DNA of 9,005 nucleotides from a virus (taxonomy: Duplodnaviria > Heunggongvirae > Uroviricota > Caudoviricetes): the IMG/VR virus record IMGVR_UViG_3300014919_000042; one strand, 5' to 3'. A program made the translations under genes and the position numbers. Positions 596 to 1,949 of the stretch are shown here, one piece after another (the stretch's first letter is position 1; the number at the start of each line of letters is the position of its first letter). Below the pieces are notes generated by a model. It was not told the origin of the DNA. It saw nothing but the letters and a program-made list of their open reading frames with translations, and searched no databases.

Positions 596-1524
596 GCAAC
601 ATTAACTATCAGGTACTGCGTGAAAAGGCAGAGAAAGCAACTAAAGGAAGCTACATCGTAGGGCATACATCTGTTAACCAACACGGCAATTTAACAGGAG
701 TTTTTGTTTGTCAAAAATGGAAAGGAGAACCCGGTGGCGTAATTGCAGAATGTCACGTTAACTGCCTGGTTGAAACAGATGCTCAGGCTTATGCAAACGC
801 TGAATTCATAGCAGAGGCTAACCCGGCTACCGTGCTGGCACTGCTGGATGAACAGGAANNNNNNNNNNNNNNNNNNNNNNNNNNNNNNNNNNNNGAGGAT
901 ATTGCGCTTACGGTTGGGAGGCTGCGCGTTGAGCTGGAAGGCAAAGACAGCAAAATAGCCAATCTTACCGCCGAACGCGATGCTCTTCGTGAAGGTGAGA
1001 TGGGCGACGCTAGGCATAGCAACACACGGGCCGCAGCTGATATCTACTTCCAACTGGTCGAGGAATGCGAAATTCCTGCTGGCGGATCTCTGGTCGAGTA
1101 CGTTGACGATATGCGCGAGAAGCTGGAAGCCGCAGAGAAGCGCATTGCAGAACTGGAAGCACGGGAAATAAAACCAGCCAAAGGCGAAGTTCTTGTCGTT
1201 GTTTCTGGTTTTACTGGTTGCGGAAAAAGCGCCATCGCCGGGGAAATAGAAATCGCGATGAAGGCTATTGGTGTACCGGTTCAGTGGACTAATGGCGATG
1301 TGGAAAAGCGCATGACAGGAGCTGACTGGCTGACAGCGATTGAGATGTACAAACCAACAGTGCGCATCGTGGAAGTTAATGTGCCACGCGCCCCCGGCAT
1401 TCGCCTCAAAGGAGAGAGAGAATGCAAATTTCACCGGTTACTCTTCGTGTTGCGAAGGCGTTTATATCCAGACATCACCGACACAATAAACCCCCGGTGG
1501 GGCATAAATTCAGCATTGGTCTGA
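592..1524 (+). CDS. Ea22-like (ead/Ea22 family) prophage protein with central coiled coil; interrupted by a 36-nt N run; true 3' end uncertain
   Basis: GTG start 6 nt after a strong RBS AAAGGAGG (578..585). N-terminal segment ...AYANAEFIAEANPATVLALLDEQE resembles the conserved N-terminus I recall for Ea22-like proteins. Central region is charged and heptad-like (LRVELEGKDSKIANLTAERDALR ... REKLEAAEKRIAELEARE). A Walker-A-like GFTGCGKS lies at 1207..1230. The last 103 nt overlap the next gene out of frame. Confidence 0.6.
   Translation: MSNINYQVLREKAEKATKGSYIVGHTSVNQHGNLTGVFVCQKWKGEPGGVIAECHVNCLVETDAQAYANAEFIAEANPATVLALLDEQEXXXXXXXXXXXXEDIALTVGRLRVELEGKDSKIANLTAERDALREGEMGDARHSNTRAAADIYFQLVEECEIPAGGSLVEYVDDMREKLEAAEKRIAELEAREIKPAKGEVLVVVSGFTGCGKSAIAGEIEIAMKAIGVPVQWTNGDVEKRMTGADWLTAIEMYKPTVRIVEVNVPRAPGIRLKGERECKFHRLLFVLRRRLYPDITDTINPRWGINSALV
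859..894. other. Run of 36 N (assembly gap or masked bases) inside the Ea22-like CDS
   Basis: 36 consecutive n characters. The reading frame is open and consistent on both sides if the gap is a multiple of 3. Confidence 0.99.
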
Positions 1525-1949
1525 GAAATGATGCCGGAGAATTGATAGGTGTGGCGACAGCCGGTAGACCTGTTGCACGACATTTGGACGATGGATTAAC
1601 GCTTGAAGTAAATCGCACATGTACCACAGGAGAACGCAACGCTAACAGCGCGCTTTATGGTGCTGTCTGGCGGGCAGCAAAGGCTATGGGTTATCAACGT
1701 TGTATTACGTACACCCAGGCAGATGAATCAGGAGCATCTCTCCGCGCAGCTGGTTTTGTTCGTGTGAAAGAGCTTCCTCCAAGAAAAAGCTGGGCGGAAT
1801 CAAGCGTCGCCCTGCGGAGTAAACGCGATCCGGTCGGAAACGGTGGTGTTCCTCGTGTGCTCTGGGAAATCAGGAGAATGAGTACCACTGGCATTCGCAT
1901 CAAAGCAGCGGGATATGACCACTATTACCAGAGAAAGCTCGAAGATTAA
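1422..1949 (+). CDS. Hypothetical prophage protein (175 aa) with weak GNAT-like acyltransferase signature
   Basis: ATG at 1422 preceded by AAAGGAGAGAGAG. Coherent, non-repetitive translation. Segment LEVNRTCTTGERNANSALYGAVWRAAKAMGY...ESGASLRAAGF resembles the GNAT core (strand, helix, then N-x-x-S-x-x-L-x-x-x-GF). Has an RHHRHNKPPVGH motif near the N-terminus. Confidence 0.55.
   Translation: MQISPVTLRVAKAFISRHHRHNKPPVGHKFSIGLRNDAGELIGVATAGRPVARHLDDGLTLEVNRTCTTGERNANSALYGAVWRAAKAMGYQRCITYTQADESGASLRAAGFVRVKELPPRKSWAESSVALRSKRDPVGNGGVPRVLWEIRRMSTTGIRIKAAGYDHYYQRKLED

What the first reader, a model, noticed from the sequence alone, without database searches (positions are those of the whole stretch)
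1422..1949. 175-aa protein with GNAT-like core motifs: candidate small acyltransferase
The central region reads like a GNAT beta4-alpha3-beta5-alpha4 core: LEVNRTCTT, then GERNANSALYGAVWRAAKAMGY, QRCITYT, and ESGASLRAAGF (the N-x-x-S-x-x-L-x-x-x-GF arrangement typical of acyl-CoA N-acyltransferases). Phage GNAT-fold proteins include DNA-modifying, anti-restriction enzymes such as the Mom family, and toxins that acetylate aminoacyl-tRNA. I did not see a clean Q/R-x-x-G-x-G/A pyrophosphate-binding motif, so the assignment is tentative.
Basis: partly seen in the sequence, partly recalled or inferred. Interest (0 to 1): 0.55.

Follow-up and report, generated by a model that had tools for sequence, protein, structure and literature searches.

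The report
Compact Mom-like GNAT enzyme in prophage
This prophage gene encodes a small, very basic GNAT-fold enzyme of the catalogued but untested "XF1762" family, whose closest characterised relative is phage Mu's DNA-modifying enzyme Mom, so it probably marks DNA chemically to evade host restriction, though it lacks several parts that Mom needs.

The parts
1422..1949 (+). XF1762-family gene, 175 aa including a stop-loss tail; the stop is TAA at 1947-1949
   Evidence: ORF and translation. NCBIfam NF045478 at 206 bits, E 2e-61. PHROG 1384 at E 3.6e-42. RefSeq relatives are annotated 'XF1762 family protein'.
1410..1414 (+). Shine-Dalgarno AGGAG, 7 nt upstream of the ATG; the gene is tightly packed behind the upstream Ea22-like gene
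   Evidence: Read directly from the sequence. The same junction module is seen in the RefSeq relative.
1422..1874 (+). GNAT-fold catalytic domain, residues 1-151
1476..1484 (+). H19-R20-H21 motif after helix 1. H19 and R20 are invariant and H21 is present in 46 of 47 diverse family members. H19 aligns with Mom H58 and R20 with Mom Y59.
   Evidence: Conservation counts. Profile-profile alignment. H58A and Y59A drastically reduce Mom activity (PMC13219725).
1605..1616 (+). E62-V-N-R65 at the end of strand beta4. R65 is invariant and aligns with Mom R111 (ELNR).
   Evidence: R111 is essential in Mom and is conserved among Mom homologues but not across GNATs (PMC7261163).
1635..1649 (+). R72-N73-A-N-S76 at the start of helix alpha3. 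It aligns with Mom R120-N121-S-E-S124. N73 is present in 44/47 and S76 in 44/47. It replaces the canonical Q/R-x-x-G-x-G/A loop.
   Evidence: S124 is essential in Mom.
1722..1757 (+). D101-E102-S-G104-A-S106-L107-R108-A-A-G-F112, spanning the beta5-alpha4 segment. E102 (46/47) aligns with Mom E150. Mom's R151-C-G-R154 loop is deleted. L107 occupies the position of Mom Y159.
1776..1853 (+). Basic, poorly ordered loop of 26 residues (119-144) between the last two strands, at the position of Mom's essential HTH-like insertion but about 17 residues shorter. W124 (42/47) and R132 (37/47) are conserved.
   Evidence: pLDDT is 56-68 in both models, with only one short helix (124-127 or 129-134). Conservation counts. 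An extended, low-confidence alignment places W124 on Mom W181.
1911..1946 (+). 12-residue C-terminal extension created by loss of the ancestral TGA stop through substitutions at 1906, 1909 and 1911. It overlaps the start of the next gene (ATG 1915) and alters that gene's GGAG Shine-Dalgarno.
   Evidence: Pairwise DNA alignment with NZ_CP166713. The tail is disordered in AF2.
160..5353 (+). Context: a co-directional early-left accessory operon of a lambdoid prophage. It contains an Ea22-like gene (592-1524), the XF1762 gene, a hypothetical gene (1915-2364), DUF551 (2345-3313), DUF4222 (3380-3622), an excisionase (3779-4033) and an integrase (4067-5353). The prophage is inserted in mlrA.
   Evidence: RefSeq annotation of the near-identical region. 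Pfam scan of the window's proteins. No internal promoter or terminator of note.

Best explanation
The gene encodes a compact, strongly basic, single-domain GNAT-fold enzyme of about 150 residues. It belongs to the XF1762 family, a separately modelled family whose nearest characterised relative is phage Mu Mom. It sits in the early-left accessory operon of a lambdoid prophage integrated at mlrA, between an Ea22-like gene and the xis/int genes. It would therefore be transcribed on induction, not in the lysogen. The most likely mechanism is that, like Mom, it works alone and transfers an activated acyl or aminoacyl group onto a base in double-stranded DNA of the phage or plasmid, and incidentally of the host. 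Mom's donor is Gly-tRNA(Gly). The modified DNA would resist restriction endonucleases when it enters the next host. What is shown: a real gene under purifying selection; the GNAT fold; Mom as nearest relative by sequence profile and by structure; retention of equivalents of Mom's R111, S124, H58, E150 and probably W181; very basic charge; confinement to mobile elements; lack of an obligate partner; and recurrent fusion or adjacency to DNA methyltransferases, recombinases and polyvalent-protein modules. What is inferred: that the substrate is DNA, that the donor is an aminoacyl-tRNA and not acetyl-CoA, that the product protects against restriction, and that expression is early. Mom's R151, Y159, Y59, its N-terminal basic segment and its HTH-like insertion are missing, so the donor, the target base or the product may differ from Mom's.
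Confidence: 0.5

Rival explanations
1. It is a true functional equivalent of Mom. It takes glycine from Gly-tRNA(Gly), puts it on N6 of adenine in dsDNA, and the adduct rearranges to N6-carbamoylmethyl-adenine. This is a specific sub-case nested within the best explanation.
For: Mom is the nearest characterised relative by profile and by structure. Equivalents of R111, S124 and H58, and an acidic residue at 149/150, are conserved. It is a stand-alone enzyme with a basic surface.
Against: It fails Pfam's Mom cutoff. It lacks R151 (R151A has no detectable activity in Mom), Y159, Y59, the basic 11-19 segment proposed to help bind tRNA, and the HTH-like insertion whose deletion abolishes activity (PMC13219725). 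It has no Com regulator. The active homologues described in the Mom paper are reported to carry the insertion too.
Confidence: 0.2
2. It is a conventional acetyl-CoA-dependent N-acetyltransferase that acts on a protein or small molecule, such as a host factor, a polyamine or an antibiotic, and has nothing to do with DNA.
Against: The glycine-containing pyrophosphate-binding motif is absent and that loop is not conserved as such. Apart from Mom, no Pfam acetyltransferase family is hit, either by this protein at E<=1 or by 20 longer family members (fusion candidates) at E<=0.001. The alpha4 tyrosine (Y159 in Mom) is Leu. A pI of about 10, the Mom-specific Arg, and fusions to DNA methyltransferases and recombinases all point to nucleic acid.
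Confidence: 0.17
3. It targets RNA and not DNA. It could be a TacT/AtaT-like toxin that acetylates charged tRNA, or an enzyme that modifies a tRNA or rRNA base, serving host takeover or superinfection exclusion.
For: It has a basic GNAT fold. Mom itself binds the tRNA acceptor end, and GNATs that act on tRNA exist (PMC13219725).
Confidence: 0.1
4. It is a catalytically inert GNAT-fold remnant that only binds nucleic acid, or a decaying accessory gene.
For: Several residues important in Mom are missing. This particular copy has lost its stop codon, and so has the gene upstream of it.
Against: Purifying selection is strong. Polar residues at the predicted active site are invariant or nearly so across about 3,850 clusters: H19, R20, R65, N73, S76 and E102. 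The stop loss leaves the 151-residue domain untouched.
Confidence: 0.03

Closest known systems
Phage Mu Mom (PDB 8BV8; Pfam PF25680), the Gly-tRNA(Gly)-dependent enzyme that makes N6-carbamoylmethyl-adenine in dsDNA
   Same: Both have a GNAT fold, and Mom is the top structural match. Mom is the only Pfam family detected. Shared features are the ExNR arginine (R65/R111), the R-N-x-x-S helix start (S76/S124), the His after helix 1 (H19/H58), an acidic residue after beta5 (E102/E150), probably a Trp in the insertion (W124/W181) and an R-aromatic pair in the last strand. Both have a pI near 10, are single-gene systems and are carried by phages.
   Different: XF1762 has about 150 residues against Mom's 241. 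It starts at the equivalent of Mom L40 and lacks Mom's basic C-terminal tail. R151 lies in a deleted loop. Y159 is Leu and Y59 is Arg. W48 is not conserved. Mom's essential HTH-like insertion is replaced by a disordered loop about 17 residues shorter. There is no Com activator, and the gene lies in the early-left operon instead of at the late, right end of the genome. It scores below Pfam's Mom cutoff, and the two families do not cross-hit in NCBIfam. Its activity is untested.
Mom-domain / restriction-endonuclease fusion proteins of jumbo phages (Iyer et al. 2021, PMC7824862)
   Same: They are Mom-type GNAT domains in phage genomes, predicted to modify DNA. They appear among the BFVD structural matches as 'endonuclease-like' or 'homing endonuclease' proteins of 490-713 aa (description).
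   Different: Those proteins carry their own nuclease domain and are read as modification-restriction modules. The window's protein is a lone domain. Where the XF1762 domain is fused, its partners are DNA methyltransferases, recombinases and polyvalent-protein domains.
GNAT type II toxins TacT / AtaT / ItaT, which acetylate aminoacyl-tRNA
   Same: They are small single-domain GNATs on mobile elements that recognise the charged tRNA acceptor end.
   Different: According to established knowledge of these families, not tested here, the toxins use acetyl-CoA with a canonical binding loop and are encoded next to an antitoxin. Here the loop is non-canonical, there is no partner gene, and the toxins are not among the top structural hits.
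FemX / L,F-transferase-type aminoacyl-tRNA-dependent GNAT transferases
   Same: They are GNAT-fold enzymes that use charged tRNA as the acyl donor. This is the donor-binding mode proposed for Mom (PMC13219725).
   Different: Their acceptors are peptidoglycan precursors or protein N-termini. They do not appear among the top structural matches listed. That FemX has a larger, two-domain architecture is from my own knowledge and was not tested here.

Membership tests
GNAT superfamily (fold level) | Mixed alpha/beta GNAT core with the order beta1-alpha1-beta2-beta3-beta4-alpha3-beta5-alpha4-beta6-beta7 | tested here: met
GNAT superfamily (fold level) | Motif A pyrophosphate-binding loop Q/R-x-x-G-x-G/A at beta4-alpha3 | tested here: not met
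   The sequence is R72-N73-A74-N75-S76-A77. Across the family, position 72 is P/R/K and position 75 is N/C/A. Mom also deviates here, with R120-N-S-E-S-R.
GNAT superfamily (fold level) | Uses acyl-CoA as the donor | not testable with these tools
   This needs binding or turnover assays.
NCBIfam NF045478 XF1762 family | HMM score above the curated cutoff of 50 bits | tested here: met
   206 bits, E 2e-61, residues 3-136 on profile positions 2-130 of 143. RefSeq names near-identical proteins 'XF1762 family protein'.
NCBIfam NF045478 XF1762 family | Retains the family's invariant and near-invariant residues | tested here: met
   H19, R20, H21, F30, G48, R49, P50, R53, T60, E62, R65, N73, S76, G90, Y91, T96, Y97, E102, G104, S106, W124, R132 and W148 all carry the majority residue.
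Mom (Pfam PF25680; Mu-type adenine carbamoylmethylase) | Pfam gathering score of 27.1 bits | tested here: not met
   22.1 bits, E 1.3e-4, covering only profile positions 3-118 of 202. Other XF1762 members score 20.8-32.5 bits. Mu Mom does not hit XF1762_fam.
Mom (Pfam PF25680; Mu-type adenine carbamoylmethylase) | Essential Arg R111 in beta4 (ELNR), specific to Mom homologues | tested here: met
   R65 (EVNR) is invariant in 47/47 and aligns with R111. Its role is described.
Mom (Pfam PF25680; Mu-type adenine carbamoylmethylase) | Essential Ser S124 at the start of alpha3 | tested here: met
   S76 (44/47) aligns with S124 within the shared R-N-x-x-S motif.
Mom (Pfam PF25680; Mu-type adenine carbamoylmethylase) | Acidic residue D149 after beta5 | tested here: inconclusive
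   The aligned D101 is variable (G/D/S/T/E). The neighbouring E102 is present in 46/47 and aligns with Mom E150. A one-residue register shift cannot be excluded without a coordinate superposition.
Mom (Pfam PF25680; Mu-type adenine carbamoylmethylase) | Essential Arg R151 | tested here: not met
   Mom's R151-C-G-R154 falls in a 4-residue gap in the XF1762 profile. Whether another conserved Arg (R49, R53, R84, R108 or R132) fills the site in 3D could not be tested.
Mom (Pfam PF25680; Mu-type adenine carbamoylmethylase) | H58, Y59 and Y159, whose alanine variants have drastically reduced activity | tested here: not met
   H19 matches H58. Y59 aligns with the invariant R20, and Y159 aligns with L107 (42/47).
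Mom (Pfam PF25680; Mu-type adenine carbamoylmethylase) | Essential HTH-like insertion (about residues 175-209) between the last strands | tested here: not met
   A 26-residue loop (119-144) occupies the same position. It is about 17 residues shorter, has pLDDT 56-68 in both models and has at most one short helix. Only the Trp (W124 to W181) appears to be retained, and that alignment is of low confidence.
Mom (Pfam PF25680; Mu-type adenine carbamoylmethylase) | W48-dependent dimer and the N-terminal basic segment 11-19 | tested here: not met
   W48 aligns with R9, which varies as R/K/A/T/E across the family. The protein begins at the equivalent of Mom L40. The oligomeric state itself was not modelled.
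Mom (Pfam PF25680; Mu-type adenine carbamoylmethylase) | com-mom arrangement, with an overlapping Com zinc-finger translational activator | tested here: not met
   In Mu, com overlaps the start of mom. Here the upstream gene is Ea22-like, and no Com-like or other Pfam family is hit by the small ORF that overlaps the start.
Mom (Pfam PF25680; Mu-type adenine carbamoylmethylase) | Gly-tRNA(Gly)-dependent formation of 6-NcmdA in dsDNA | not testable with these tools
   This needs LC-MS of nucleosides and in vitro reconstitution.
GNAT type II toxin (TacT/AtaT/ItaT) | Adjacent cognate antitoxin gene | tested here: not met
   The window neighbours are Ea22-like and a hypothetical protein related to the DUF551 protein. 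No neighbour is conserved across 43 dereplicated loci. There is no PADLOC hit.

The most novel reading that the evidence does not exclude
The XF1762 family has about seven times as many 90%-identity clusters as canonical Mom in the same database (5,696 vs 843), and about 3,850 clusters at 50% identity. It may be a minimal Mom-type enzyme that installs a different, still undescribed nucleic-acid modification. It could use another aminoacyl-tRNA or acyl donor, or act on another base or on single-stranded or entering DNA, and it could work without Mom's HTH-like DNA clamp, R151 or Y159. If so, tRNA-dependent DNA hypermodification would be a widespread anti-restriction strategy of temperate phages and plasmids across Proteobacteria, Actinobacteria, Firmicutes and cyanophages, and not a peculiarity of Mu-like phages.
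Probability: 0.25. Interest if true: 0.75.

Novelty: new member of a known kind. Interest (0 to 1): 0.4.

Why it matters
Mom's chemistry was only solved in 2026. It takes glycine from charged tRNA and puts it on adenine in DNA (PMC13219725). The gene here belongs to a much larger, separately catalogued family related to Mom that nobody appears to have tested. That family has shed several elements Mom cannot do without, yet it is highly conserved and spread through prophages and plasmids of many phyla, including about 3% of complete E. coli genomes (157 of 5,426). A simple expression and LC-MS experiment would show whether these compact enzymes also modify DNA. That would define the minimal catalytic unit for tRNA-dependent DNA modification, reveal how common the strategy is, and possibly uncover a new modified base that matters for phage therapy, restriction-barrier engineering and the interpretation of long-read methylome data. 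If they prove to be ordinary acetyltransferases, the 'Mom-like DNA modification protein' label now propagated in phage annotation should be corrected.

Tried and rejected
Sequence-only searches of PDB chains, with the single sequence and with a profile of close homologues, found nothing meaningful and missed Mom. The link needed structure searches and Pfam or profile-profile methods.

hhalign of the narrow alignment A1 against the single Mu Mom sequence gave 2.4% probability. It improved to 53% with diverse alignments on both sides.

PADLOC gave no hit for this protein or for seven neighbours, so it is not a catalogued defence-system component.

A search for a conserved partner gene failed. 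BLAST clustering of neighbours in 53 loci with <80% identity found no recurrent cluster. Pfam annotation of the +/-1 and +/-2 neighbours of 43 dereplicated loci showed only scattered DNA methylases, terminases, lysis genes and replication genes. My impression that the gene often precedes a terminase was only weakly borne out, with about 3-5 of 83 downstream neighbours being terminases.

My first greedy ORF caller lost the gene in 16 high-GC loci and had to be re-anchored.

Literature searches led nowhere. 'XF1762' returned 0 papers. 'Mom-like' and 'momylation' returned nothing on this branch. The supplements of the Mom paper are not held, so I could not check whether its tested homologues A and B are XF1762-like. 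Iyer et al. 2009 is not held.

The toxin-antitoxin reading and the Com-regulated reading were considered and rejected on context. No promoter, terminator, Rfam family or tRNA is associated with the gene.

A residue-level 3D superposition on 8BV8 was not possible, because model coordinates are not exposed to the scripting tool.
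Full report
**1. The observation**

The window has an ATG-initiated ORF at 1422-1949 (+) that encodes 175 residues. An AGGAG Shine-Dalgarno lies 7 nt upstream.

Two AlphaFold2 models were made. The first used close homologues (pLDDT 81.7). The second used a diverse alignment (pLDDT 86.6, core >=96). Both place those strings on strand 60-68, helix 74-88/89, strand 93-99 and helix 105-109/110.

The gene is not a chance ORF:
- It has 5,696 homologous clusters at 90% identity, best E 2.5e-101.
- A profile finds about 3,850 clusters at 50% identity, 2,704 of them at E<=1e-10.
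- Against diverged relatives, non-synonymous divergence is 0.10-0.22 while synonymous sites are saturated. Close pairs give dN/dS of 0.04-0.27.

Two details need correcting. The literal 'N-x-x-S-x-x-L-x-x-x-GF' pattern is not there; the residues are D101..G104..L107..G111-F112. The 175-aa length is a local accident, described in section 6.

**2. What it is**

| Library or search | Result |
|---|---|
| NCBIfam | NF045478 'XF1762 family protein', 206 bits against a cutoff of 50 |
| PHROGs | phrog_1384 'Mom-like DNA modification protein', E 3.6e-42 |
| Pfam | One family at E<=1: Mom (PF25680), 22.1 bits, below the 27.1 cutoff, covering the N-terminal 118 of 202 profile positions |
| PADLOC | No hit |
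| Foldseek vs PDB | Top hit is the Mu Mom crystal structure 8BV8, E 5e-8, TMq 0.68; other GNATs at TM 0.55-0.60 |
| Foldseek vs BFVD | Family members, endonuclease-fused Mom-type domains of jumbo phages, and a protein named Mom |

RefSeq already annotates near-identical genes as 'XF1762 family protein'.

The fold is therefore GNAT beyond reasonable doubt. Mom is the nearest characterised relative, but the relationship is distant. Sequence searches of PDB chains miss 8BV8 altogether, and Mu Mom does not hit the XF1762 model.

**3. Residue-level comparison with Mom**

The 2026 study of Mom (PMC13219725) showed that Mom alone transfers glycine from Gly-tRNA(Gly) to N6 of adenine in dsDNA. The adduct then rearranges to N6-carbamoylmethyl-adenine. 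That study reports:
- R111, S124, D149 and R151 are essential or nearly so.
- The H58A, Y59A, W48A (dimer), Y159A and W181A variants are drastically impaired.
- An HTH-like insertion at about 175-209 is essential.
- The basic segment 11-19 contributes.

The 2020 study notes that R111 (R101 in its numbering) is conserved among Mom homologues but not across GNATs (PMC7261163).

I aligned 47 diverse XF1762 proteins (A3) against 30 Mom-family proteins (A2). hhalign gives E 1.4e-4 and 53% probability over 121 columns.

| Mom residue or element | XF1762 equivalent | Status |
|---|---|---|
| R111 | R65, invariant | Kept |
| R120-N121-x-x-S124 | R72-N73-x-x-S76 (N73 44/47, S76 44/47) | Kept |
| H58 | H19, invariant | Kept |
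| E150 | E102 (46/47) | Kept |
| D149 | D101, variable | Unclear |
| R151-C-G-R154 | 4-residue gap | Lost |
| Y159 | L107 | Lost |
| Y59 | R20, invariant | Changed |
| W48 | R9, variable | Lost |
| Residues 1-39 | None; XF1762 starts at the equivalent of Mom L40 | Lost |

An extended alignment, of low confidence beyond residue 120, places the conserved W124 on W181 and [R/L]147-W148 on R216-Y217. Mom carries about 17 extra residues in the insertion and has a basic C-terminal tail that XF1762 lacks.

In both AF2 models, residues 119-144 are a low-confidence loop (pLDDT 56-68) with one short helix. This is not an HTH-like module.

Both families are very basic, with a median pI near 10.

In short, XF1762 looks like a stripped-down Mom. 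The core signature is kept, but several functionally required peripherals and two or three active-site residues are gone.

**4. Context**

The window is the left arm of a lambdoid prophage integrated in mlrA (yehV). All of the following genes are on the + strand:

| Coordinates | Gene |
|---|---|
| 592-1524 | Ea22-like |
| 1422-1949 | XF1762 family |
| 1915-2364 | Hypothetical |
| 2345-3313 | DUF551 |
| 3380-3622 | DUF4222 |
| 3779-4033 | Excisionase |
| 4067-5353 | Integrase |

The 3' part of mlrA follows, and then yehW, yehX and yehY on the minus strand.

There is no internal promoter or terminator of note, no Rfam family and no tRNA. There is no Com-like activator. By position, expression should be early after induction from the leftward promoter. 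That is an inference from lambdoid genome organisation.

Distribution:
- 157 of 5,426 complete E. coli genomes carry the gene, 21 places being on plasmids.
- 77 of 72,556 plasmids carry a homologue. Seventeen E. coli plasmids have a match at >=99% identity, the seven >=99% matches listed being 100% (six) or 99.3% (one) identical over the full 151-aa core.
- Named phages that carry it include Kapi1, TL-2011a, Pectobacterium ZF40, Burkholderia phi1026b, M. abscessus prophages, Synechococcus and Pelagibacter phages, Streptomyces Samy and Microbacterium Min1.

Across 43 dereplicated viral loci, no neighbouring gene is conserved. The neighbours are a mix of DNA methylases (4 of 83 upstream), terminases, lysis genes and replication or recombination genes. 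A stand-alone accessory gene is what one expects of a single-enzyme system such as Mom.

Domain fusions all involve DNA or DNA transfer. Partners are a D12 N6-adenine methyltransferase, a C5-cytosine methyltransferase, serine recombinase/resolvase, LPD28+YodL, DUF4316 and an ART-PolyVal protein. In phi1026b the homologue overlaps the start of a DNA methyltransferase gene that is followed by parB. On E. coli plasmid pEC361_4 the identical protein lies about 2.7 kb from mobilisation and LPD7 polyvalent-protein genes.

**5. Mechanism and rivals**

The best-supported reading, at about 0.5, is a stand-alone Mom-like transferase. It would move an activated acyl or aminoacyl group onto a DNA base and so protect phage or plasmid DNA from restriction in the next host.

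- Shown: the fold, the relationship to Mom, the retained signature residues, the basic charge, the restriction to mobile elements, the lack of a partner gene and the DNA-related fusions.
- Inferred: the substrate, the donor, the product and the biological role.

| Reading | Confidence | Main point |
|---|---|---|
| Exactly the Mom reaction (a sub-case of the above) | about 0.2 | R151, Y159, Y59, the HTH-like insertion and the N-terminal basic segment are missing |
| Classical acetyl-CoA acetyltransferase with a non-nucleic-acid target | about 0.17 | Generic GNATs score almost as well structurally, but the CoA loop is non-canonical, no other Pfam GNAT family is hit, and charge and context point to nucleic acid |
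| tRNA or RNA-directed toxin or modifier | about 0.1 | No antitoxin, no conserved partner, no such structural matches |
| Inert remnant | about 0.03 | Contradicted by conservation and purifying selection |

**6. This particular copy**

Compared with the closest annotated genome (NZ_CP166713), the window differs by two stop-codon losses.

- The TGA stop of the Ea22-like gene at 1417-1419 is AGA. That ORF now reads 105 nt into the XF1762 gene in another frame.
- The TGA stop of the XF1762 gene at 1911-1913 is GGA, after substitutions at 1906, 1909 and 1911. This adds 12 residues that AF2 predicts to be disordered. It also alters the Shine-Dalgarno of the next gene.

The 151-residue domain is unaffected. 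It is 100% identical to other E. coli copies.

**7. Novelty and verdict**

The family is already catalogued in NCBIfam, PHROGs and RefSeq names, and the Mom connection is already implied by PHROG and Pfam labels. Identification is therefore not new. No paper in the searched library addresses the family.

What remains open is the biochemistry. The point of interest is a minimal branch that is about seven times larger than Mom proper in the same database (5,696 vs 843 clusters) and lacks elements Mom requires.

I file it as a member of the XF1762 family and of the broader Mom-like GNAT kind, but not as a member of the Mom family proper. Interest is moderate at 0.4. The most novel reading not excluded is a different tRNA-dependent nucleic-acid modification that is widespread in temperate phages and plasmids. 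I put its probability at about 0.25.

Noticed in passing
window 1417-1419 (Ea22-like ORF 592-1524): The stop codon of the Ea22-like gene, TGA in the closest RefSeq relative, is AGA here. The ORF therefore runs 105 nt further, overlapping the 5' end of the XF1762 gene in a different frame.
   Followed up: yes
window 1906-1913: Three substitutions within 6 nt (GGAGAGTGA to GCAGCGGGA) remove the XF1762 stop codon and change the GGAG Shine-Dalgarno of the downstream gene (ATG 1915). The same AAAGGAGAGTGAnnATG junction module occurs at both ends of the gene in the relative, and both copies are altered in this window.
   Followed up: yes
window 859-894: There is a run of 36 N inside the Ea22-like ORF, a masked or unresolved stretch. 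That ORF's translation therefore contains 12 X residues.
   Followed up: partly
window 4067-6075: The prophage integrase abuts a 5'-truncated or replaced mlrA (yehV) gene, which encodes the curli regulator. The prophage therefore occupies the mlrA site. The int/xis region is 93-96% identical to Stx-converting phages (VT1-Sakai, BP-4795, YYZ-2008, JLK-2012), but those phages match only 43-46% of window 1-5400. Whether they carry the XF1762 gene was not checked; none of them is among the 32 phage records matched by the protein.
   Followed up: partly
window 1915-2364 and 2345-3313: The two consecutive downstream proteins share an N-terminal module (…ASLEAEPxAW … APPVP…; BLASTP E 4e-9, 29% identity over 85 residues). 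This suggests modular duplication among these lambdoid accessory proteins. In the relative CEA601S, the DUF551 gene is split into a pseudogene fragment plus a 269-aa ORF. Here it is a single 322-aa ORF.
   Followed up: partly
L085 (E. coli plasmid pEC361_4, NZ_AP027413) 5001-5492; one search hits H93-H99: The identical XF1762 protein (WP_001167293) also sits on E. coli plasmids of roughly 49-146 kb. Most are scored non-mobilizable and may be phage-plasmids. One copy is near a plasmid mobilisation protein and a large LPD7 polyvalent protein.
   Followed up: partly
L083 (Burkholderia phage phi1026b) 3995-6562: The XF1762 homologue gp66 overlaps by 4 nt the start of a 433-aa DNA methyltransferase gene, which is followed by a ParB-like gene, directly after the CII-like activator. 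This looks like an early DNA-modification cassette.
   Followed up: no
window 1-5500: The simple scan finds 15 terminator-like hairpins against 5.9 +/- 2.6 expected from shuffles. They include one at 1442-1458 (+), 20 nt into the XF1762 coding sequence, and one at 1503-1490 (-). None is obviously positioned as a functional terminator.
   Followed up: no
protein P0317 (968 aa) and BFVD A0A8S5PZ92: An XF1762 domain is fused downstream of DUF6884 in a 968-aa protein. The best BFVD structural match (E 2e-16) is a 214-aa phage protein labelled 'aspartate 1-decarboxylase', which is probably a mis-annotation.
   Followed up: no
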